Part shown: in pieces, positions 3,401 to 43,850 of the stretch
Layout of the letters: every line of letters starts with the position of its first letter
Numbering within the stretch: the first letter of the stretch is position 1
Assembly (NCBI GenBank): GCA_964276515.1
Contig: OZ193909.1
Location: 8,804,001-8,868,000, forward strand
Length of the DNA stretch: 64,000 bases
Reading direction: 5' to 3'
Source of the DNA: Gordius albopunctatus
Taxonomy: Eukaryota
Program-made: the position numbers and the translations under genes
The notes under the pieces: generated by a model
Seen by the model: only the letters and a program-made list of their open reading frames with translations
Databases searched by the model: none
What the model was told of the DNA's origin: nothing

Positions 3401-6400
3401 TGACATATCCGTTCCACAAAAATGGGCTATTGAGGATATGAGATTTTTTTGATTTTTGTAGGGCTTGTAAGTTTTGTTGAAAGTGGCTTGCATAGGTAAA
3501 TGTCCAATTTTTCTTTTCCTGGACTTTACACCATTTATTTCTTTGCAGATGAGTGTTCCATATTAGGCATTATCAAAACTAACATAAATAATTACTAAGC
3601 AGGAATCATAGGATAACACATTCTTTCAAATCTTACAAAATACAATATCTATTTTCTTATAATCTCTTCCATACTTCACTCTTTCTCTAAGATTTTCTTT
3701 TACTTTATAAAATTCTTTCTGAATATTTTCAGCTATTAGCAATAGATTTTTTTAATTCCATACTTAATTGTTTGTATATTAGAATAAGCGCGAAATGAAT
3801 AAATGAGTGTTTAACAGATTCAATAACTTGTATGAAATTTTATAGATTATTTTTAACAGAATAAAAGACTACTTAGGCTCTTCTAAATTATTCCGGGCTG
3901 GGCATATAATAAATTATGCCCGGCCCGGAATTTTAGAGCCTCAAAATTTAAGGCCCGGGCCTCGGGCCGCCCGTGAAGGTCTCTAGGGCTGGCTACCATT
4001 TATTCTTGATACTTATAAAGAACAGTGGGGAAGGTATATCTTCAAGCTTTGAGCAAGTGTCTACGGCGAGATCTTCTTTAATAGGTGAAATGGAAGGAGA
4101 CTCTATATCTGGTCTGCATCTAGAGTCAGGGGTAGAGGGTGATTGAATTGATCGCGATTTGAGCAGTCTCTTTCGATAGAAATCATTTGACACGGGGCTA
4201 GAAGTTAATTTCCTTGGTGTAAGGGAATTTAACGAAGGCGTCCTAAATAAATTATTTGATAATGTTCCAGTTACATAAGCGATGACACCCATATCTAAAG
4301 ATTCCGACTCGGCGTTTCTAAAAATCCCCGAGCCTGAATACGAAGTTGCTCCAAGCCTATTTTTAAATTTTAATTTTTAAACCTAATTTAATAAATACTT
4401 GGGCGTTGGGGTAAAAAGTTTTCTTTTAGTTGACATTGATGTGTTAACGATGTCTTGTTGCGAATCATTAGACGTGTCGCCGTTATTACTATGAAAGACG
4501 AAACTATTTAACAATTCCGACGTGTCGCAAAAGCTAGGTATACTAAGAATAGTTTGAGTTGAAGTAGATACCATGGTAGCTTGTAATTTATAAAAAAAAA
4601 CAAATTTAAAGAAAACATAGATGATATCTAAAATAGGTAATAGCACAGGTAAAAAGGTAATCCAAAATATAGTAACATGCTGATGAGTTTTTTTTATAAT
4701 TTTTTGTAAATATCTTAAAAACTATCAAAAAACATGAATTGTGTGTGGAAAAAATATAAATGTCAAAGGTTTTTTAGTTATAAATTGTAAAAACTTTAAA
4801 CATTTTTTACAAAGGTGTGGTTTTAACTGACAATTTTACCTTATTTTATAACCATCAAAAAAAACCAATTGACTTAATTTAATTTGGTTGAGCAGTCTGT
4901 CTTATATATAATTATAACAAACAAAACTTTATCAATTTTAATAAACATATTCATCTCTACATTCAAACATAAGCAATCATTATTGCATTCGAAAGTTGCT
5001 TCATTAAGGCCAATCCCTTATAGAGCAATATATATTTTTCTCCAATTTAAAAACGAATAAAACCTTCTTTACTGTAACATAACACTTCCAACAGAAAACG
5101 CACACAAAATTTTAATAATGACACCTAATCTTTAATCATGCATTGGTTTTTTGGGGTCTATGGCTAATATAATTAACATTTATAAGACAAAAGATATTAA
5201 GATTAGGAAATTAAATCTTTCAAAGGCATAACCTTACCATTGAAAATATCTGCATTTATTACATGTTTCTAAGTATCTATTACAAATAAATATATTCGTG
5301 TGTAACTAGAAGGAGTGCAAAAAATCTGCTTCTAGTTTTTCGAAATTCATAATAGGATCCTTTCTAAATATATTTCATTGCTTTTAGTTAAATATTTTCC
5401 TATTGTCGTTTCGAACTATTTATTGCGTTTTAGGTGTAACGTTTCTTATATTTTTAAGGATTAAATAGAGTATTTGACAATTTTAAGCTTATTTCAAAAT
5501 ATTATTTAGAGAATGGCATAAATTTTTTGATTTCTTAACCCTTGAGAGTAATTATGGGGTGTGAGAAACCCCACCTAAGTTTAAATTCGGTTTTAAATCT
5601 AGAATTTTGTTTTTCAGAATTTAGCAAAAGCTATATTTCCTAAAAATTTTATGTGTTTTACCCCAATAATATTAGAGAAATAAGCGTATAACTTTTTATA
5701 GATAGCTTAGAATAATTATATGCAGGCTTTCAGCTCCTTTTAAAGTTAGTAACAAGCATTAAAAATCACCATTTTTTAATACTTCTATTTTTTTGTAAAA
5801 TCATTTTATTGTAAATGCTTGCTTTTTTATTTTTTAAAGCTTCTTTTAATAAAAAAAAACATTTGTTTTTAAATTTTTTATTAGCTGTATGGTGTCCCTG
5901 ACAAAAATAAAAAATAGCATTTTGAATTTTTATAAATATTCTTTGGATTTAGTTAATTGCATATAATTTTTAAACTATTATTTATGGACAAAAAAATTTT
6001 CCCAAGAACCTATAAAAGGCTTTAATAAACATATATTTAAAATTTGGGAAGTGTTTCTATATTAATGTTAAAGTTATGATCATTTAAAGAATGGGATTTG
6101 ATATACCCCATAAGTCTGCCCAGGTTGAGATTTTAATAAGTCCTCTCAATGGTTAGTCACTTCATTTTATTAAATAAATGTTAACTTATATAACATCCAA
6201 TGATGTATTAAATTTGAACTTGAGGAATATAAAAGAGTAGAAATGATACATTCATAAGATCCAATTAGATTAAAAATTGCACAAAAAATGTTATTTCAAA
6301 AAAATAAATGTGCCTTATAATTTTTTGATCTTGTAAAAATATATGTATAAAGCAAGCAATTTTGAGGGAAAAATTATCTTAAAATTAATAGCCCTAACAA

Positions 6401-7961
6401 ACTTTATTTATGAAAAAGAATAATTTTTGTAAATAAAGTGGTTTAAGCATAAATCAAACCACAACATTATTTAAAATACCTATATCCAAATTTAAGATTA
6501 AATTTTGTATATAATTAATACAATTTAAACCTGCATTTATATTTAGAATAAAAAGCTACAAAATTGATGATTGTTATGGCTTATTATTTGTTGCTAGATA
6601 CTAAATTTATACCAACTTATATTGTTTTAGCTTAATTCTTTGAAATTTTTAATCATAAAATTGATGTCAGTAGATTGAGAATATTATACTGAGGGAAAAT
6701 TGTGTGAATTTTTTTATAAATTTAATTGTGGAAAAAATATTAAGGCAAATATTTAAAGCAAAAGATGAGTAAAATTTTATAAATTATCTTTTGTTTTTAA
6801 AAATTAAAGCAATTTGGACTATAGACCCATGAATATGAACTATTTTCAGAAAATGAAGTCTAACAATGAATATGATATTTTTTTATAACGTAAAATGAGT
6901 GGAAGAAGGGATACGTATCCAAATGAAATAATAACACTGAGTGAATGGAGAAGAGGGATATTAATGGATAGGGGAAAAGATGGGCAGTGATCTATTAATC
7001 CAAATTCCTTTAAATTAATTTAATAATTAATTTCCCAAGCCATCTTTTTGCCCATCTATGAATATCAAAGCCTCTGTCTTTATATTTAAAATTACTTTAC
7101 CCACGGATTAAAATATGTTCTGCTTAATTACATATAATTAAAATAATGTTAATTAAGCTAACTTGTATTTTGTATGGCTGGAGAACATATATTTAAGGGT
7201 GAGGCAAAATATTTATCAATTGCTCTTTGGCGCTCAACGTCATCATAAGATGTTTTGTCAGTGTTAAAATGTTGCCAAAATGAGGGAGAATTCTCAATAT
7301 CAATGGGAAACATTCTAGCTCTTTCTCCAATAGACCATTTAAAAGAATTATTTTCATGATCAGGATTTAGTATCTTAAATCTTGCTTTTTCTTTGGGCAT
7401 TGAATGATGACATTTTAATGATTCTATAAAATTTGGAGTCATAAAATTGCCTTTATAAGTAGATGCAGTTTGCTCAAAGGGGTTTGCACTAACATTTAAT
7501 TCTCTTTCACAATTTGGATCATTTAAATGTCGAGATTTAAGGTCAAAATACAAGTGCTGATTTTTGAAAAATTGTGTTTTATAGCCACATACAGGTGATA
7601 AAGTGGTTATATGCTTGGATTGGATAGGTGTTTTATAAATTGGATCATATAATTTATTTAATAAATTATGACTTAATGAACACTTACTAAAGATTTCATC
7701 TGTTTGTGTAAGTTCATTAAACATATCGTCCATGGTAGAATTTGTGACAATGAACTTAAGATCACATTCATGAGGAAACAAGCCTTTTAATTCTTTGTTG
7801 ATGTGATCAATTATAAAATTAGGTGCATGAACCACAATTTTAACATGATTGCATAAGCAGTTGTTGTCAAAATGCAACCTTGATTTTCGCTTAATAATTT
7901 TTGAAGTAGAATTAGCTTTGTTATTGATAATAAAATGGGGAGTTTTACATGATTTATACAT
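496..7961 (-). CDS. BORA: Protein aurora borealis (Bora), multi-exon
   Basis: Exon 1 (7961-7163) encodes NPFE...FKWSIGERARMFPIDIE...ERQRAIDKYF, matching the Bora N-terminal domain. Downstream exons join in phase via GT-AG introns: 4579-4399 (STQTILSIP, KRKLF), 4356-4013 (SPSISPI), 2833-2765, 2555-2423, 1546-1443, 1371-1063, 1017-754 (DTGYHT) and 692-496 (stop). Two small exons (5249-5238, 5016-4969) are tentative. The ORF-track start at 8018 is TTG; the first ATG is 7961. Confidence 0.88.
2601..2747. mobile_element. 147-bp hAT-type MITE (CATGGGCGTAG-terminus group) in a BORA intron
   Basis: Termini CATCGGCGTAGCC / GGCTACGCCCATT; perfect 8-bp TSD TACATCCC at 2593-2600 and 2748-2755. Confidence 0.85.
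2932..3985 (-). mobile_element. Non-autonomous hAT element with dimerization-domain relic, in a BORA intron
   Basis: TIR TAGAGACCT / AGGTCTCTA; TSD GGGCTGGG / GGGCTGGC (7 of 8); subterminal GGCCCG repeats; minus-strand relic FPALSTL resembling the hAT C-terminal domain. Confidence 0.8.
5539..6152. mobile_element. piggyBac-like MITE
   Basis: TTAA|CCCTTGAGAG at the left end and CTCTCAATGG|TTAG at the right end: an imperfect TIR with a TTAA-like target. Confidence 0.55.
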
Positions 7962-8189
7962 GATATTAAACTTGAAAATTTTAAAAAAACGCCAAATTAA
8001 ACATATGACCGAACGCAAACACGTTTATATTCAAAAGAAATCTTCTCAAAAAGAAAGGTACTAGTCCATAAAGCAATTAACAGTTATTACACTAAATTAT
8101 ATGCAACTGTTTATAAAAAAGCAGCTTATTTTTTTGATATGTGTTTAATTAAATAATATTATTTATATTAGCATTTTTTTTTATTTATG

Positions 8190-8236
8190 TAACACTACCA
8201 ACGACGGTCCCAAGTCCGTGTGGAAAAAGTGGAGGG
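8190..8236 (+). ncRNA. Twister self-cleaving ribozyme core (P1-type architecture, P1 absent)
   Basis: T|AA CACT ACCAACG ACGG TCCCAAGT CCGT GTGGAAAA AGTG GAGGG is collinear with the rice Osa-1-4 twister as I recall it. P2 CACT/AGTG, P4 ACGG/CCGT, pseudoknot T1 CCC/GGG, pseudoknot T2 AC/GT. Confidence 0.85.
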
Positions 8237-11184
8237 TTGGCGTCAGGTCGGAAGCCGGCTGTAAAAAGCAACTCCAAACACCATGGCAGCTTCAAATACG
8301 AACTTATACCAGAATGCTAGGGCGTCCTCCCCAAACGACGCGCATTGCATCATCCGCCCGTGCAATGTGAAAAGTATACAAGGGTCACCGCCTCACTCAC
8401 AACGAAGGCGGTTGAGGAACCTAGTTGTCGAACGGACAAGAGTGGCTAGCTGGAATGTGGGCACGCTGACGGGGAAGAGCATCGAGGTTGCGCAGATGCT
8501 AAAAAGGCGAAGGATACACATAGCGTGTCTACAAGAAACGTGGTGGCATGGAACAAAAGCCAGGGAGCTAGGAGATGGTTACAAGCTATACTACTCGGGT
8601 TCCCCATCACGGAAGAACGGGGTCGGTATAGTGCTTAGCGATTCCTTTAAGGACAAGGTAGTCGAAGTCAAACGATGCTCAGATAGATTGATGTGCATAA
8701 AGCTGGCGGATCAAGGCGGCCTTGTCAATGTTATTTGTGCGTATTCGCCCCAGGTTGGATGTTCCGAAAACGAGAAGGACGAATTCTATGAGAAGCTCGA
8801 AGAAGAAATACGCTACGTGAAGCCTGACGAGAATCTCATCATCGGAGCAGACTTTAATGGGCACGTTGGGAAAGAAAGGGGCGTGTACGAACAAAATCAC
8901 GGCGGGCATGGCTATGGAGTGAAAAATAAAGAGGGAGAGAAGTTACTACAGATGGCGCAAGCTTACGATATGGCCATTGGGAATACCTTCTTTCAGAAGC
9001 GTACCGAACATTTAGCGACGTACAGTAGTGGAAATCACCTTACACAGGTCGACTACATATTAGTGAAGCGCAAAAATTTGTGGCAAGTTAAAGATTGCAA
9101 GGTTATACCGGGGGAAGAAATCGCCAAACAACATCGGCCAGTTGTCCTTGATATAGCAAGAAAGATTTTTCCCGTAAGGAGAAAAGTCTACACACCAAGG
9201 ACAAAGTACGAAAAGCTTAAGGATGATCATGCAAATGAAATGTTTCACGCTCGAGCAACTCCGCTCTTGAAGGTTGCAGGCTTGGAGGGCGACATTAACA
9301 AAAGGTGGGGCACCGTTGCAAATGTTCTAAAGGAAACGGCCTTTCAAATATTGGGACGAACTAAGGGCGGCAGAGCTCACAAGCGTGAACCACTACGATG
9401 GTACAAAACGAAGAAAGGAGAAGACTACGAGGCATATCGTGAAGCGAAACGCAAAGCTAAGATAGCGGTCGCGATAGCGAAGAACGAGGCTTACACCGAG
9501 ATGGCAAACAAGCTCTATACCAAGGGCGGCCGGCGACATAGTCATGTATAAACTCGCAAAAATCAGGGAGAAAAAAAGTCGAGATGTCGGGACACTTAAA
9601 GTCATTAAAACGAAGGAAGTCATCAAAAGATGGAAAGATTATTTCCAAAATATGATGAACAAAACGAATGATAGAAGACCTCTAGAAGATGGAACCGAAC
9701 TCGAACTTGGTTTTACCATTTCAGGCTTATGAAATAGGAGCGCAACTAACGAAGATGCGGAAAGGGAAAGCGCTAGGTCCCGATGATATACCGATCGAAG
9801 CTTGGCTTGGGTGCAAAGGAGAAGGAATCGATATAATGACAGGCCTATTTAACGCTATGCTGTATGAGAGTCGTATCCCTGACCAATGGAGGGAAAGTAC
9901 GATAAGGTAAAGGAGACGCGCAGGAATGTGGCAACTTTAGAGGTATCAAGTTGACCTGTCACTCACTAAAACTACTAGAAAGGGTGCTAGTGAAAAGGCT
10001 CAATGACGAAGTTTGTCTCTCGCCCAATCAGTTTGGATTTGTGGCCGGTAAATCAACGATGGACCCAATCTTTGCGTTGAAGCAGACGATGGAAAAATAT
10101 GGCGACATAAGAAAGAAATTACACATGGTCTTCATCGATTTAGAAAAGGCCTACGATACGGTTCCGAGAGACTTAATATGGTGGTCCCTTAGAGCCAGAA
10201 ATATACCCGAAGGATATGTTCGACTTATCAAGGAAATGTATAATGGCGCGGTTGCATCTGTTAGGACTACCGTAGGAGTAACGAAACCCTTCCGAATAAT
10301 GATCGGACTACATCAAGGATCAGCGTTAAGCCCATTCTTGTTTAATCTAATTATGGATACAATAACAAAGGACTTGCACAAGCCAGCCCCTTGGACTATG
10401 CTATATGCCGACGATATTGTCCTATGCGATGAAACAAGAGAAGGGGTTTTTCATCAGGCGAAAAAATGGTCAGAACGTTTCTCGGAATTCGGGTTAAAGG
10501 TCAGCGAGAAGAAAACGGTTTACATGCAAACGATGGGCGGTAGTCCGCAAATGCACAAAATTGACGGTCCAAGGTACACGGAGGTTGATAAGTTCACATA
10601 TCTTGGCTCGCTATTACATCAAGAGGGAGGATGTACCGCCGAAGTCCATTCTCGAATCAAGAAAGCATGGCTCAAGTGGCGCAGCATCTCCGGTGTCATG
10701 TGTGACAAAAAGATACCAATTTGGTTGAAAAGCAAGGCGTACAAAACCATCGTGCGACCGGTCTTGCTTTACGGGAGCGAAACATGGGCTGTAACCACCG
10801 CGGAGGAGAAACTCTTGCAAGTCACGGAAATGAGAATGGTGCGATGTAGCTTAGGCTACACCAAGCTGGATCGTATGACGAACGAATCCTTGATGACAAA
10901 GATGGGTATACAAGCGACGAAGGACTTCTTAAGAGAAAATCGACTGCGGTGGTACGGCCATGTATTGCGAAGAGACGAAGACGATGTCACACGGCGAACG
11001 CTGGAGATGGAAGTGCCTGGAAGAAGAGGAAGGGGCAGACCACGTGCCACCTGGAAACGACTGGTTGAAAAGGATATGGGCATCAAACAGATGGAAATTG
11101 GCATGGCATTTACGCGACTCAGGTGGAAGAGGCTGCTGAAAACGTACCCCACATGTGGGATTTTCAACACGATAAAGAAGAAGG
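8191..11184 (+). mobile_element. RTE-clade non-LTR retrotransposon, both ends present but frameshifted
   Basis: APE endonuclease (SWNVGTL, CLQET, GADFNGH, QVDYIL) from 8283; RT motifs (QFGF, FIDLEKAYD, GLHQGSALSPFLF, YADD, FTYLGS) in 9951-11204. Frame breaks near 9545, 9700 and 9905. AAG-repeat tail at 11175-11184. TSD-like AGCATTT..TTATGTAA at 8170-8192 and 11185-11199. Confidence 0.95.
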
Positions 11185-11254
11185 AGCATTTTTATGTAAT
11201 TTAGCTATTAAATTTTTTCAATATTTAGTTTATTTGTTTGTAAAAATGTCTTCC

Positions 11255-11935
11255 TTTTTGAACAGCTTTTTTTTTGAATACACTTCAACTCTCCAACAAA
11301 GAGTTCAGGATTGGAACAGGGCTCCGCCTAGGAAGTGATATAGTTGCTCCTCATAAATGCAACTTATGTGGCTCATCTGTCGGTACAAAAGGTCACCATG
11401 GCCTGCATTGCAAATTTAATAAGGCCAGATTTCTACGGCACACATCTATTAATGCTCTTATACAGAAGACATTCAAAAAGGCGGGCTTTCTCTCCCAATT
11501 GGAGCCTAATGGTCTTTGCCTTAGCGATAAGACAAGAAGAGACCTGATGGATAGACCGTCATTCAATGGGCAAAAGGGCTATGCCTAGCTTGGGACTACA
11601 TTTTTCCGGATGCCTTTGCTCCCTCAAACCAAAACAAAGACCCCCTTGTTGATTCTGAAAGATTAAAGTCCGCTAAATACGCAGAACTTAATTCCTCACT
11701 GCTTTTCTCCCCTATAGTGACCACTACCCTTACAAAAATAGGTCCTAAAACCCAAGCCCTTCTGAAAGAATTGGGACGCCGTATAGCTGCCAATACCTTT
11801 GACAATAGGGAAACTTTCTTCATTAAACAGAAAATCGGAATCATTATTTGTCATTTCAACGCTATCGCAATTTTCGAATGTTTACCTCGCATATGATTTT
11901 TATAGTTGTTTATAGTTTCATTTAATAAAAAAAAT
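11255..11935 (+). mobile_element. 3' fragment of an RLE-type (CRE-like) non-LTR retrotransposon
   Basis: LRLG...CNLC...GHHGLHC zinc knuckle, RH motif, LEP, then after a frameshift RPDG...W...LAWD (restriction-like endonuclease) and LLKELGRRI; A-rich tail near 11925. Confidence 0.75.
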
Positions 11936-36565: not shown

Positions 36566-38099
36566 TTATCCATCATCGATCGAAGACATGTCCAAACCCT
36601 CAATTTCCTCTTCGGCTTGAGTGTAAACGCTTTCGCGAGGTTCTCGCTCTTCGTCATACTGCAGCGCAGTGTCAATGTAGTACAAAAGGCTATTAATCGT
36701 GCCTTTTTTGTTCAAGTTGAGCGGTTGAAAACGGATCAAATCGTAACCGTCAATCACGGTAGCTAGCATATGGGTCAAACGTTGATATTTCGCTCCCATC
36801 TTCAAGCTCGAAGAATCAAGTAATTCTTCGAATAATTCCAAACTCGGTTCGGATAAACGTTCGATAAGATCTTGACTGGATGAAAAGCACGGAGCCTAAG
36901 TGCATATTGGACGGGATTTTATGTTTTTATCATTAATGACATTTAAGCATAAATTCAAACATAAAAACGTACGATTGTAATAATCGACCCCCCCTTTAAA
37001 TAATCCTTTAACGGAAAGCAAACAATGTAACCTGTCATATTACTAGAAAAGGGTTGGAGGATTTTATTTGTTTTACGATATCCATCTTCGAGAATACATT
37101 AACGAAATGTATTCCTTCGAGGTTGATCATAACCGAGAGGGCTGTAAGGGTCACCGAAAAATACTTATCCACATCGACCAAAAAATGCGCGGCGTCTACC
37201 ATGAAAACGCCGCATAATCTGAAATCACAACGGTTGCATAGGAAATTAACGAGGCGTTTCACGGCGGGTACGTGAGTGTACAACTCAATTTGGCCAGGGC
37301 AATCGAATACTACATAATCTCCGTCGACAAGCGCTTCCTCTAAGCGCTCTTTGAGCCAAGAAAAATCGTCCTTGGCGAGATATTCCATGCAATAAACCAG
37401 CGCACCATTGGGACCAATTATATTTTCTATACAAATAAATATGTGAAACTAAGTTAATGAACTCCAAATGACAAAGATTGCCTTTTCTGTCTAACTAACT
37501 TTATTATTAATAACTTTAAGTCGTTAAACGAAAAATATAGGCTCTGGAAATTCAAAAATATATTTTATTAACGCGTTTACAAATATAGTTTGTCTATCTA
37601 ATCTCAAATTTTGAAGTAAGCAAAAAATTTCAGGAGCTAAATAATTTCGCCTAGCCAAAAATTGATACTGACCATTAGCTATATGCTTTGTTTTCGTTGA
37701 TTGCTCTTGAGCACTTTTGACAGCATCTCGAACTTTATTCCCAAGTTCCGTTGGAGACTTAATAGTCCTTTCGTTGGCCTCGGACCCGGAATCTTGAGAA
37801 CTAAGGCTGCCTTCGTCGCCAGCCTCCTCTTCCATTTGCTCCATTACGTCGTTGACCGTGATAAGATCCCTGACGTCTATATCGTATTCAATTGTTCCTG
37901 AGCCAACAATTTCTCGGCTTAAAGGAGTTTGCGAGCCCGTTGGTTGCACATCCAAATCTTCTGCACCGGGGTCTAAGTTGACAATTTTGATGTTTCGTCT
38001 GTCGAGGCGCGAAACGCGACAGTGTTCGAGTAAGGCACGACAGTACGTTGATTTGCCGCTCCCAGCAGGGCCCATAACGAATTGACCAAACTTAGTCAT
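36566..38099 (-). CDS. GPN3: GPN-loop GTPase 3
   Basis: Exons 38099-37673, 37426-37044 and 36895-36566 join in phase. Motifs: GPAGSGKSTYC, VNLDP, GPNGALVYCMEYL, FDCPGQIELYTH, SKMD, IDTALQY. Confidence 0.93.
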
Positions 38100-39839
38100 T
38101 GGCTAGTACCTTTTTTCGAACGTTTTCGTGAGTATTTTTTTATCTTCCCGATACAAAACTTTCTGTTGAACTATAAAAATTATAAAGTTAGCTTATGTGC
38201 ATCTATAAAGTTTGATGTGATGCTTAAAGCACACCTAAAAATATTCCAATGATTCAGACCAGTTTACAAATTGCTAAAAAGTGTTCTCAGCCATTTACAT
38301 TTTCGCGTTTATTATAGAACTTGATATAAAAACAATATAGGCAAAAACGCATAATTTGATGAAAGATTGAGTTATTTGTCAATTATATATCATACCTATA
38401 TATATGATGTATTTTTGTTAAGCAAAGTTTTTTCCAATATATTTTACATTAGGTAATTGCCATAAAAAATTTGTGCAATTAAATAAATTACATAAATAGT
38501 TTTTGTTGTTAAAACTTTTTAAAATTGTTACCCTATGTATAGTAAGATCATAAATAATACAATAGGTTTTAACAAATTTATCGCTATGCCATTATTAATT
38601 CAAGGCTAATTTAGGTTTTTGTAAACAACCTATAAAATTTTACAAATCAAAAAAATTATTTAGTATGAAAAACTCAAAACTTTGTTAATAATGTGTTTAA
38701 ATGAACTAATTTAACATAGGTTTAAACTTTGCCTTAACTGATGCTTTAAAATATAGAACGTAAATATATTGAGTGGAGCGATTGAATTTTTCCACAGCTC
38801 AACAAAAATTTAACCATAAAATTTTCTATTGGTAGATTAAAAGGTATTACATCTTTCCAAACATCAAACTAGGCCCAATTTTATGAACCATGATTTTTAT
38901 AAATTATTACACAACTTGTGGAAAAAAGTACAATGAAATGTACAAAAAAGTTATGTTTGTTATATGTAAGTGTATTCCTGTTTCAAAGGTGTATGTATCA
39001 GTTTTATGCTTTTTTGATAATATTAAATAAGATGCTAATAGTTTCTGATGTATCTGTTATTCTTTAATTTTTAATAACCTTTTTCTATTAAATTACTACA
39101 AATTTAAGTTGACAGACTGAAACATACCAAAATTTTAAGCAAATTTAGATCAGTATAATATTCAAGAGTAAAAAACATATAATATTCACAAGGTTATATT
39201 AATATTTAATGGCCATCATGCATCACCTTAACCACAAAATCTTATTTAATTAAAATAAATATAGATTTAAAGACTCATCAGAGCTTTAATTAAAAATTTA
39301 GGGAATCACCCACTCCCTTTAGGTACTCTTGCATATGCCACATTATGACCAAAACTAACTGAGATATGCAAAAAATATTGGAAATTATAAAAACTAACAA
39401 AATATTTTCATATTAAAAACTATAATATATAAAATTTGGCATAATGACATACCAAAGGGATCGAATAATATTTTTTCAAGTTTTACAACTTGTTTGGGTC
39501 GAAAGAAATAATATTTGTGACCTGTTCCAGCAAGACTTTTTAGGGCTACTAGAGTTAATCTACAAGAAGATTTAATTGCATTACACTTTGTACCTACTTT
39601 TCTTTGGCCATATATTAATTTATAAAAATTGCATATTAGCCACAGACTTAATTTTGAAAAGAGAAGAAAAGTGTTATGGATATATGGTCGAAAAATAAAA
39701 CGTTGCCTAAGTTTAGAAACACCACTTAATGTAATGTGGCTATTAAATTAACTGAATTGAATAACCGTCTACTAAAAAATATTTTATAATCTTAGATATT
39801 GGGTGATGATAGAATAAATGAGCGATTATGGCTAATAAT

Positions 39840-41074: not shown

Positions 41075-43850
41075 AGTAAGTAAGTAAGTTTGCCGCGAAG
41101 ACGCCCAAGAGCTTAGTTAGTGCAATCTAAGGTTGAGCCCCTTCTAACGCCAAATGGCGCATCAGGCCACGTTAGTGATAACGTGCGTAAGTATGCTGTA
41201 AAAAAATGATTAACATGCTGTGTAATTATGACATCTAAATATGTAATACCTGTTGACCTGAAAGTAATGTAAAGCCTTTAATGCTAGGTCGTAAATGAAT
41301 ACTGCGTGAGGAGATCCTTACTGGGGGAGCCGCAATAATTTGTTCTTTGAGAAGTCTTTCCAACGTTTGCTGTCTTGCATGATGGGCAGCAATGAATTCA
41401 AATCATGACCCATTGTTTGGACATCGCGGAACACCTTGTAAAGCCAGCTGCCATTGCATTTGCGACCTTTTAGCTGAGGTGGACACCAGAACAGGGAAGA
41501 TAGGCAGTAGTTGGTTCCCTTCCTCCGCACTTGATGTGCCAAAAAACCCCATTTTCTCGCGAGTAGAATATTTTTAATTGGAGCGATTTTGCAACGCACC
41601 CATAGATCCTCGTTGGTTATTCTCAACGGATAAAATATCCGGCAAACGATACGTAGCATTTTATTAAGACTGACTTGCAGCTTCTTTAAGCTAGGAGCCT
41701 TCAGCGACCAAGATTCGCAACCGTATAGGAGGATTGGTAGGATCGTGACTTTGTAAATCCTTATACGCGTCTGGAGCGTCAGTTGACGTGAGCGCCATAT
41801 CACCGAGCAAGAGTAGAACATGACCATGGTCCGACGGAGCTTCGATTCGGCATCCGCTTCGGCGTAGGTATCTGGAGTAAGCTCCACTCCCAAATATCAG
41901 ACTTTTTGAGATGCATTTATTACGATGTTGTTGATTACCAGAGTAGAGTTCGAGGGATCGTTTATGCAGATCATTGAGCATTTGTCGGGGTTTATAAGCA
42001 GTCCTCCTTGCTTGGCTTGGATGCTGAACCTGTCTAACATTAGTTGTGCTTTGGAGATAGAAGGGGTCACTAGACAAATGTCGTCTGCGAACAACAGGGA
42101 TGATATAGTAGTGCCGTTTAGTTTAATACCATCTGTCGGAAGTGTGGATCTCTTCATTATTAGATCCATCGCAATTATAAAGAGGAGAGGGGATAGCGGA
42201 CAGCCTTGCCTGACACCAGATGTTACTGGTAAGGGTTCCGATTTGTGGTGGAGGTGGGAGATAACTAGTTTCATGTTTTCGTCTTAGGCAAGCCTAAGAG
42301 GCATAGCGCTTCCCAAATGTATAGATGGCACAGCGAATCAAAAGCTTTAGCGATGTCTAAAAACACAAGAACCAGGGAGGGAACCGCTTGTCCGTGAAAT
42401 ATCCCATATGTTCCTTAAAGTTGTTATGTGCTCTGTCGTCGTACGGCACTTCCTAAAACCAGTTTGATTGTTTGTAATTATTTAATCCACCTCGCTGTAA
42501 ATTAGATTGTAAATAACCTTGATGAATATTTTTGATTCAAGGTTAAGTGGGCCTTTGAAGTTAACGATAAATCCTCTGTATATATCCACTACAGGGAATA
42601 AGGGCTGGGCCGATAAAATTGAACGAAAATGGTCTTCCCAAGCTTTGGTTTGGGCCAAGGAGTCGTTTGAGGCGCCAACTGTGCTTATGCTATTGTAGGC
42701 TCGTTTGGAGAATGTGTTATAGTTTAGGCTGTCTAGAATGGTAAATAGCTGGTGATTGTTATTGGAACGTGCTGCCGCTTCGGCCTCTGTGGTTTTTGCG
42801 TTAATAAACGCAATTTTATCTTGTCTGATGCTGGATTTAATCCGCTTGCTGAGAGCGGATAAGCATGCGTTTTTGAAAGGAAACTCATTTCTATCAAAGT
42901 AGATGTTAGATTTTGTCTTGAGGAGCCCAATTGTTTTTTCTGAAAACCATGTCTTTGTTCTAATTCGACACTGGTCCTTCAAGGGAATTGTAAATATTTC
43001 AGATATTTTTATGCTGTGGTCGTTTATCGACAGGTCGGAGAGATTGCTATTTTGGATTTTTAGGTGAAGGTGGTCCCTAAATTTAGGGTCTATTAAATTA
43101 TGTTTGTCACGGTCAGTGCGCCCGACGGATGAATTCAAGTCGCCAATTATAATTGGCACCGACTTGCGGCTTAATTCTTTGATTTTGTCAAAGAGAAGAC
43201 TGAAAAATTCGTTAATAACCTTAGTTTTGTAGGAGGATGTAGGGGCATAAACATTTATCACCGACAACACACGTACCCCTATTGTTAGATTGATTATAAG
43301 AATCCTTTCATTTACCCAGTCGATACTCAGAACGGGAAGACGTTTATTTATGAAAGTCGAAACCCCTGTTGCTGGATTATCTGTAAAACCCACGTGGTAA
43401 AGGGTGTACTCTGAGCTGCTGTCGATCCTAAAATGAGGAATCCGCGTCTGTTGTAGACAAAGGATGTCGAGTTTATGCTTTCTTGCATATGTTAACATCA
43501 TCTGTTGTTTGCCTTGGATCATAAGGGAATTGATATTTATAGAAGCTATTTTGATCTTTATTAGCTGTTAAGTTGGTGAGGACGAGGTAGGGGCAGAAAT
43601 TATGATCTGATGAGTTGAACCTTTCTTAAATTTATATATTTTGAGGTGTCGAGTTGCAGACTACGAGCCCTAGCCCAATTGTATGACGAAGTATTAATTG
43701 AACGGTTTCAAATCTCTTCTAAGAGTGAGGCTAGCCGAAAACGCATGACGATTAAAGTACTTAGCGGCTTGAATGACCTGGGTTTGATTTGGGGGTAAGT
43801 GGGTCTTAACCAAAGCTGATATAAGTAGAGCTACATGCTTTGTCACGGTT
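41075..43850 (-). mobile_element. Decayed APE-RT LINE (RTE-related), probably 5'-truncated
   Basis: APE (DILCLQQT, NVYAPT, IGDLNS), RT (GVRQGCPLSPLLF, LFADDI), C-terminal ILLYGCESW; multiple stops and frameshifts; (CTTA)n-type tail near 41075-41088. Confidence 0.88.

What the first reader, a model, noticed from the sequence alone, without database searches (positions are those of the whole stretch)
8170..8260. Twister ribozyme defines the 5' end of an RTE retrotransposon
Seen: 8190-8236 reads T|AA-CACT-ACCAACG-ACGG-TCCCAAGT-CCGT-GTGGAAAA-AGTG-GAGGG. Against the rice Osa-1-4 twister as I recall it (U|AA-CACU-GCCAAUG-CCGG-UCCCAAGC-CCGG-AUAAA-AGUG-GAGGG) there are two compensatory changes. The P4 outer pair C-G becomes A8204-U8219, and a T2 pseudoknot pair G-C becomes A8197-U8215. 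The scissile U-A (8190/8191) and the catalytic G (8232) are retained. Established: twisters cleave at this U-A and have been described at 5' ends of RTE-clade elements in schistosomes. Inference: the element is released from a read-through transcript by self-cleavage, so this copy begins at the cleavage site. It is probably unannotated in this lineage, though the association itself is not new.
Basis: partly seen in the sequence, partly recalled or inferred. Interest (0 to 1): 0.88.

Follow-up and report, generated by a model that had tools for sequence, protein, structure and literature searches.

The report
Twister ribozyme heads hairworm RTE retrotransposon
A jumping-gene family, in what is likely a horsehair worm, begins mostly at the base where a built-in twister-type RNA fold is predicted to cut itself free; the arrangement is already published for a blood fluke, so this is a further example in a new host group.

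Summary
Confirmed. Window 8186-8240 is the only Rfam match in the window (twister-P1, 38.6 bits, E 6.8e-05, below the 67.2 cut-off). It maps base by base on rice Osa-1-4. The changed pseudoknot pair is a published rescue pair (relative activity 0.17 single, 0.89 double).

It heads a 3.0-kb RTE-type element with a broken reading frame and an imperfect target-site duplication; a related organism has the empty site. In two runs the largest shown classes of 5' junction lie at 8191 and 8190, with unrelated AT-rich flanks, so the family starts at the predicted cut. The host is probably a nematomorph.

Cleavage is untested. P1 is nearly absent, one loop is 3 nt longer, and a base private to this copy may misfold it.

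The arrangement is published for Schistosoma Perere-3 and stated for RTEs generally; this scan found it before on other DNA. One extra: a covarying hairpin just downstream (8238-8261) overlaps the would-be P1 strand in all four twister-headed elements seen. New member of a known kind.

The parts
8170..8190 (+). 5' copy of the target-site duplication (host DNA); 8 nt longer in its T-rich middle than the 3' copy; supplies the base 5' of the predicted cut and the 5' side of P1
   Evidence: Two exact 9-nt blocks shared with the 3' copy (8170/11185, 8184/11191); contigs of X1 and X2 cross 7800-8216 with 0 differences
8191..8236 (+). Twister ribozyme core, type P1, without a P3 hairpin; predicted cut between 8190 and 8191; A8191 = general acid position, G8232 = general base position
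   Evidence: Rfam RF03160; pair check; numbering from Osa-1-4
8220..8227 (+). 3' strand of loop L2, 8 nt against 5 in the model; G8223 is private to this copy (family reads C or A)
   Evidence: Alignment; variant table
8237..8240 (+). Would-be 3' strand of P1; overlaps the 5' strand of the downstream hairpin
8238..8261 (+). Predicted hairpin with a 4x1 internal loop, followed by an A run; shared with RTE 5' UTRs with and without a twister
   Evidence: 47 of 49 cells paired, 5 of 7 pairs with two-sided change in 7 sequences; structure drawn by eye from those sequences
8283..9530 (+). Start codon (8283) and AP-endonuclease part of the single RTE frame
   Evidence: PF03372 E 6e-10; residues 9-429 of a 983-aa relative
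9531..9905 (+). Middle of the frame, broken by frameshifts and deletions
   Evidence: Two further frames against P0012; indel table
9906..11172 (+). Reverse-transcriptase part of the frame
   Evidence: PF00078 E 2e-34; 43-50% identical to 120 listed proteins, most with APE and RT domains
11173..11184 (+). Likely family stop codon and very short 3' end with two GAA units
   Evidence: Sequence; same layout as HmRTE-e01 in PMC2887409; not in frame in this copy, so inferred
11185..11199 (+). 3' copy of the target-site duplication (13 nt), followed by AA identical to the first two bases of the element
   Evidence: empty site in organism B, joint 8177 to 11204

Best explanation
This is a full-length, frame-broken copy of an abundant RTE-type retrotransposon whose first 46 bases match a twister ribozyme, which likely cuts the element's RNA out of host read-through transcripts and so likely fixes the family's 5' end at 8191. 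Shown: the fold, the element's anatomy, the target-site duplication, the empty site in a relative, and the clustering of family junctions at 8190/8191. Inferred from twister chemistry and the Perere-3 work: a host promoter reads into a copy; the twister cleaves N|AA (G8232 as base, A8191 as acid) and leaves a 5'-OH RNA starting AA; that RNA is translated from the AUG 92 nt downstream and copied by target-primed reverse transcription; each new copy starts at the cut, and its P1 5' strand is whatever host DNA lies there. This copy cannot make the full protein, and its own ribozyme may be weakened by G8223 (I put in-vitro cleavage of this exact copy at about 0.55, of the family form at about 0.85).
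For: Covariance-model hit. Both pseudoknots intact. In Osa-1-4, G13A alone has relative activity 0.17 and G13A/C31U 0.89; C20A/G35U 0.94. Loose ends before 8191: 43 (X2) and 46 (X4); before 8190: 32 and 36; next shown classes 11-18 at 8201-8203 (17 of 174 rows shown). Summed depth rises about 200-fold between bins 8181-85 and 8191-95 in X2 and X4. Only 8223 varies at high share within the core; other listed changes there are under 2.5% of depth. A sister subfamily shares the head up to 8278 and then diverges. Twister-P1 also heads 3 distant RTE relatives, L001, L002, L008. Published: T-variants cleave to 5'-AA with any 5' base and sit next to the duplication; P1 defects are tolerated and about 94% of tested twisters were active.
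Against: No cleavage or RNA-end data. Score far below Rfam's cut-off. Thermodynamic folding gives no signal (z -0.2 to +1.6). The 3-nt longer L2 strand and the combination of changes were not covered by the Osa-1-4 double-mutant data. G8223 allows a C8198-G8223 pair that would block the 2-bp pseudoknot (probability 0.41, 0.83, 0.54 in three contexts, model without pseudoknots). Smaller junction classes at 8201-8203 are unexplained, and 157 rows were hidden. 6 of 9 related elements with DNA upstream of the endonuclease match have no twister, so RTEs of this group do not all need one.
Confidence: 0.85

Rival explanations
1. The twister is active in the family but dead or very slow in this copy, because of the private G8223 and the missing P1; the locus is then a fossil record of cleavage in the parent element. 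This differs from the best explanation only for this copy.
For: G8223 is nearly absent from family depth (C about 64-69%, A about 30-35%). It can pair with C8198. A comparable helix extension was proposed for the near-dead A40C mutant of Osa-1-4. P1 has two wobble pairs only. The frame is broken.
Against: L2 changes and P1 defects are mostly tolerated. All catalytic and pseudoknot bases are intact. The folding model ignores pseudoknot energy.
Confidence: 0.4
2. The 5' end is set by an internal promoter that starts transcription at 8191, and the twister fold is a relic or serves another role such as translation initiation.
For: Internal promoters give sharp 5' ends in other LINEs (recalled). 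6 of 9 relatives lack a twister. Kojima 2018 speculates that conserved RTE 5' UTR sequence could bind a transcription regulator.
Against: A start site has no reason to fall on the A that twister chemistry predicts. The pseudoknot is kept by a two-sided change that rescues activity in Osa-1-4. AT-rich flank gives way to the fold at the same position in L001, L002 and L008.
Confidence: 0.07
3. The match is chance, or this copy is merely truncated at 8191 while the family extends further upstream.
For: Sub-threshold score; my loose descriptor hits 7 times in 100 simulated windows.
Against: E 6.8e-05 across 64 kb and 4227 families; upstream letters of other copies are unrelated to each other (agreement 0.44-0.47).
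Confidence: 0.02

Closest known systems
T-variant twister ribozymes at the 5' end of Perere-3 (RTE clade), Schistosoma mansoni (Liu et al. 2021, PMC8501958)
   Same: Type-P1 twister at the 5' end of an RTE element; cut predicted before AA; duplication directly 5' of the cut and supplying the P1 5' strand; same four bases after the 3' pseudoknot strand as most rows of their Table 1.
   Different: No P3 hairpin; A-U pairs in the 2-bp pseudoknot and the outer P4 pair; 8-nt L2 strand; shorter leader (92 nt from cut to AUG); different phylum. Activity is measured there and untested here. I could not compare the proteins.
Truncated twisters at 5' ends across the RTE superfamily (one sentence, 'in preparation', in PMC7761336)
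   Same: States the same association in general terms.
   Different: No data or species given; two searches found no follow-up paper in the held library.
Osa-1-4 twister of rice (PMC5113685, PMC6154101)
   Same: Minimal form without P3; of positions 7-35, 24 of 29 are identical, and positions 41-49 all are.
   Different: Two compensated pairs, U18->C, 3 more bases in L2, no proper P1.
HDV-like ribozymes at 5' ends of R2, RTE and other LINEs (reviewed in PMC6765202; Ruminski 2011 not held)
   Same: Same proposed job: release of a promoterless element from a host transcript.
   Different: Unrelated fold.
[quoted passage not shown]
   Same: A conserved stretch inside RTE 5' UTRs and RTE-derived SINEs of many animals; the 8238-8261 hairpin may be it.
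   Different: Its sequence is in a figure I could not read and my motifs were not in the supplement text, so identity is unverified. The passages read give no structure.

Membership tests
Twister ribozyme, type P1 (RF03160) | Significant covariance-model match | tested here: met
   38.6 bits, E 6.8e-05 over the window
Twister ribozyme, type P1 (RF03160) | Reaches Rfam's gathering score (67.2) | tested here: not met
   38.6 bits. The model carries a P3 hairpin and P1; L001, L002 and L008 also fall short at 49-59 bits
Twister ribozyme, type P1 (RF03160) | P2, P4 and both pseudoknots can pair | tested here: met
   All Watson-Crick
Twister ribozyme, type P1 (RF03160) | Catalytic A (A7) and G (G45), conserved L4 and 3' L1 bases | tested here: met
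   A8191, G8232 by mapping on Osa-1-4
Twister ribozyme, type P1 (RF03160) | P1 stem | tested here: not met
   Two G-U pairs of four; P1 is reported dispensable
Twister ribozyme, type P1 (RF03160) | Site-specific self-cleavage | not testable with these tools
   Needs an assay; family junctions at 8190/8191 are indirect evidence
T-variant/Perere-3 arrangement | Element 5' ends at the cut site across copies | tested here: met
   Largest shown classes at 8191 and 8190 in X2 and X4
T-variant/Perere-3 arrangement | Target-site duplication adjacent to the cut | tested here: met
   8170-8190 and 11185-11197, imperfect; empty site in X4
T-variant/Perere-3 arrangement | Ribozyme and element transcribed together | tested here: inconclusive
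   No RNA holder listed; X11 is only guessed to be RNA
RTE clade LINE | Single frame of about 990 aa with AP endonuclease then RT | tested here: met
   Four pieces colinear with residues 9-977 of a 983-aa relative; domains; definition from PMC2887409
RTE clade LINE | Very short 3' end with simple repeat units | tested here: met
   Two GAA units at 11177-11182; compare
RTE clade LINE | RT groups with named RTE elements against other LINE clades | tested here: inconclusive
   Quick tree of 34 rows without other clades or clade-labelled references; window RT unresolved. Hits of the same layout reach E 1e-115 or better; solved R2 and L1 only 4e-21 and weaker (a smaller database)

The most novel reading that the evidence does not exclude
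In RTE-borne twisters the strand labelled 'P1 3'' is really the first strand of an element-encoded hairpin (8238-8261 here) found across RTE 5' UTRs. That hairpin would stand in for P1, making cleavage largely independent of the host flank, with the ribozyme a swappable head in front of a common module. This would revise the published model in which the insertion site decides, through P1, which copies stay active.
Probability: 0.2. Interest if true: 0.6.

Novelty: new member of a known kind. Interest (0 to 1): 0.3.

Why it matters
It extends twister-processed RTE elements to a probable nematomorph and gives base-level evidence from many copies that the element boundary is the ribozyme's cut site. 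The natural pseudoknot change matches a rescue pair from deep mutagenesis. A young, abundant family with many different flanks is a good test bed for whether the insertion site or the element's own downstream hairpin controls cleavage. The principle itself is published.

Tried and rejected
Rfam at gathering score: 0 matches. No whole genome is held, so copies were examined only through contig tables. Free-energy folding of 4 of 5 stretches was weaker than shuffles and the fifth about equal; it says nothing either way for a double pseudoknot. No RNA holder listed. X11 (organism E, RNA only by guess): 7 contigs laid, 5 starting at 8190-8193; contigs cannot show an RNA start, so not used. X10: 0 contigs laid. 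Summed depth was not used as a copy number. A relaxed descriptor on all 79 loci gave mostly noise; only L001, L002 and L008 had the true loop motif. The downstream motif gave 0 matches in viral contigs and 41 in prokaryote genome contigs, a mix of apparent chance matches and likely eukaryotic contamination; these were chosen by the pattern and left out of pair counts. Rfam found no ribozyme at E<=5 in 10 loci carrying the motif without a twister; an HDV-like fold in L045 and L099 is only an impression by eye. The careful tree did not finish; the quick tree leaves the window RT unresolved. Roth 2014 and Ruminski 2011 are not held. The supplement of PMC11662667, which lists tested twisters from about 1000 organisms, could not be read and may include nematomorph examples. 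The scan's notes hold no look-alike by sequence.

Full report
OBSERVATION. Rfam finds nothing at gathering score. At E-value level twister-P1 matches 8186-8240 on the + strand at 38.6 bits, E 5.3e-07 in 501 nt, and is the only match at E<=0.5 in the whole window, E 6.8e-05. P2 (8193-8196 with 8228-8231), P4 (8204-8207 with 8216-8219), the 2-bp pseudoknot (8197-8198 with 8214-8215) and the 3-bp pseudoknot (8209-8211 with 8234-8236) are all Watson-Crick; P1 has two G-U pairs of four. The low score follows from the missing P3 hairpin, the weak P1 and three extra bases in L2 (alignment).

COMPARISON WITH A TESTED TWISTER. The window differs at G13->A, U18->C, C20->A, C31->U, G35->U and in L2. Counting columns in the flat text, G13A alone has relative activity 0.17 and G13A/C31U 0.89 (the same value in both rows); C20A has 0.86 and C20A/G35U 0.94 (one row each). 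So the pseudoknot change is an informative rescue pair, the P4 change much less so. A7 and G45 are the proposed acid and base (PMC6154101, passages) and map to 8191 and 8232. McKinley 2024 (PMC11662667; abstract, passages, section 32 part 1, section 35) reports about 94% of tested natural twisters active and P1 defects tolerated.

THE ELEMENT. GC rises from 0.28 in the 5' flank to 0.47 in 8191-11184. An AUG at 8283 opens an AP-endonuclease frame, and an RT frame follows. Against a 983-aa relative the coding region falls into four pieces in three frames covering residues 9-977, so this copy is full length but broken. The 120 listed relatives are 43-50% identical, mostly single APE+RT proteins of about 900-1050 aa. 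The element ends in two GAA units, as does HmRTE-e01 (PMC2887409, passages). Clade placement by tree was inconclusive. A GPN3 exon elsewhere in the window is 74% identical to Gordionus and at most 58% to the other 58 hits, so the host is probably a nematomorph; this rests on one gene.

INSERTION SITE. 8170-8190 and 11185-11197 share two exact blocks; the 5' copy is 8 nt longer. Contigs of X1 and X2 cross 7800-8216 with no difference, so the junction is real. X4 (organism B) has a joint 8177 to 11204 at depth 490, close to its flank depth of 522: an empty site with one copy of the duplicated bases, also lacking a few neighbouring bases. The base 5' of the cut is therefore host DNA. The target continues with AA, identical to the element's first two bases, which would allow microhomology at the 5' joint (inference).

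FAMILY 5' ENDS. On 8141-8290, 954 contigs of X2 and 2291 of X4 were laid, 224 and 329 of them only partly. Of the 17 loose-end rows shown (157 hidden), the 5' classes are 43 at 8191, 32 at 8190, 11 at 8201 and 11 at 8202 in X2, and 46, 36, 18 (8201) and 13 (8203) in X4. Agreement among the upstream letters at 8190/8191 is 0.44-0.47, with AT-only consensus: many unrelated flanks. The 8190 class is what a flank ending in T gives; its share (32 of 75, 36 of 82) is near the T content of the window outside the element (0.35), in line with cleavage after any base. Summed depth goes from 2,050 to 402,089 (X2) and 3,191 to 581,245 (X4) between bins 8181-85 and 8191-95. Within the core only 8223 varies at high share, and there the window's G is the rare base. 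Loose ends behind 8278 (59 and 65 contigs, agreement 0.75-0.76) show a sister subfamily with the same head and a diverged frame start (19 of 30 letters alike, by eye). X10 gave nothing; X11 gave 7 contigs.

RELATIVES. A metagenome scan with an RT alignment returned 79 loci. 11 match the start of the endonuclease; 9 have over 100 nt upstream of that match. 16 of the 79 loci, those 9 included, were scanned with Rfam: twister-P1 heads L001, L002 and L008 (49-59 bits); L006, L007, L009, L039, L045 and L062 have none (L062 holds only 118 nt upstream). In the quick tree L002 and L008 group with plant proteins, as do three loci without a twister, so the ribozyme is patchy in this group.

DOWNSTREAM HAIRPIN. 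Window 8238-8261 aligns with a stretch in L001, L002, L007, L008, L039 and L045. A 4-bp stem, 4x1 internal loop and 3-bp stem pairs in 47 of 49 cells, with two-sided changes at 5 of 7 pairs; 0 of 500 shuffles reach the covariation score, 15 of 500 the number of such pairs, and slid controls reach at most 57% paired. The structure was drawn by eye from these same sequences, which inflates this, and free-energy folding prefers other pairings in the window. A model built from it found 5 further copies at E<1e-5 in 80 sources, in repeats without a twister; these keep the pairs but are too alike to add covariation. In all four twister-headed elements the would-be P1 3' strand overlaps its first stem by 2 to 4 bases. 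It may be Kojima's conserved RTE 5' UTR domain (PMC5786205; passages, section 19, supplement search), unverified. Searches found no paper giving this motif or a structure for it. An alternative reading is that a G/U-only strand simply pairs easily with AT-rich flanks.

MECHANISM. Shown: fold, anatomy, duplication, empty site, junction clustering. Inferred: read-through from host promoters, cleavage before A8191, cap-independent translation, target-primed copying that ends at the cut. For this copy a Bora-like exon lies on the other strand, its first in-frame ATG 230 nt from 8191; a shared promoter is possible but untested. G8223 may weaken this copy: C8198 is predicted unpaired at 0.14-0.20 with it and 0.47-0.93 when 8223 is kept unpaired.

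WHAT IS KNOWN. Liu 2021 (PMC8501958; abstract, parts 3-4, sections 19, 21, 22, passages) shows this arrangement with activity in S. mansoni Perere-3. A 2020 review states it for the RTE superfamily as unpublished work (PMC7761336, passages). HDV-like ribozymes do the same job in other LINEs (PMC6765202, PMC13725137, passages). No paper linking nematomorphs with ribozymes turned up: none of the 15 papers listed of 2,111 mentions the phylum, and the one nematomorph genomics preprint opened of the 6 has no mention of RTE or ribozyme. An unread supplement may list such twisters. Six earlier notes of this scan describe the same arrangement in short RTE-derived elements on other DNA; I did not check them.

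VERDICT. Real, correctly read, and a new member of a known kind. Interest 0.3.

Noticed in passing
window 7158-8024 (-): Bora-like exon (PF15280, E 1e-06) head to head with the element; first in-frame ATG at 7961, next exon probably near 4580.
   Followed up: partly
window 11270-11900 (+): A second, decayed repeat right after the element; the frames show a Cys/His cluster and a PD-like stretch that recall a restriction-like endonuclease tail (by eye). High summed depth in X4.
   Followed up: partly
window 41300-43700 (-): A second, distant APE+RT LINE with broken frames; no Rfam match at its 5' end.
   Followed up: partly
window 8278 (runs X1, X2, X4, X11): Sister subfamily sharing the ribozyme and leader but with a diverged frame start.
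   Followed up: partly
window 8201-8203 (runs X2, X3, X4): Smaller classes of 5' junction about 10 nt inside the ribozyme; short truncations or clipping at a nearby mismatch.
   Followed up: no
window 8203-8264 (run X4): One contig goes back 62 nt, a tandem doubling of part of the ribozyme and leader in one copy.
   Followed up: no
L045:150-215; L099 upstream of its motif match: RTE leaders without a twister carry a shared stretch that looks HDV-like by eye; Rfam found nothing.
   Followed up: partly
L007:220-262; L045:211-252; L082: Another shared leader fold upstream of the common hairpin: a stem whose loop can pair with a downstream run, by eye; no Rfam match.
   Followed up: no
L060, L065, L066, L078: SINE-like repeats that begin about 25 nt before the common RTE hairpin and have no twister.
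   Followed up: partly
L082, L086, L096, L106, L115, L118: Contigs filed in prokaryote genomes carry pieces matching RTE proteins and are probably eukaryotic contamination.
   Followed up: no
window 37035-38102 (-): GPN-loop GTPase 3 exons; the first open frame holds a long stretch outside the Pfam match.
   Followed up: partly
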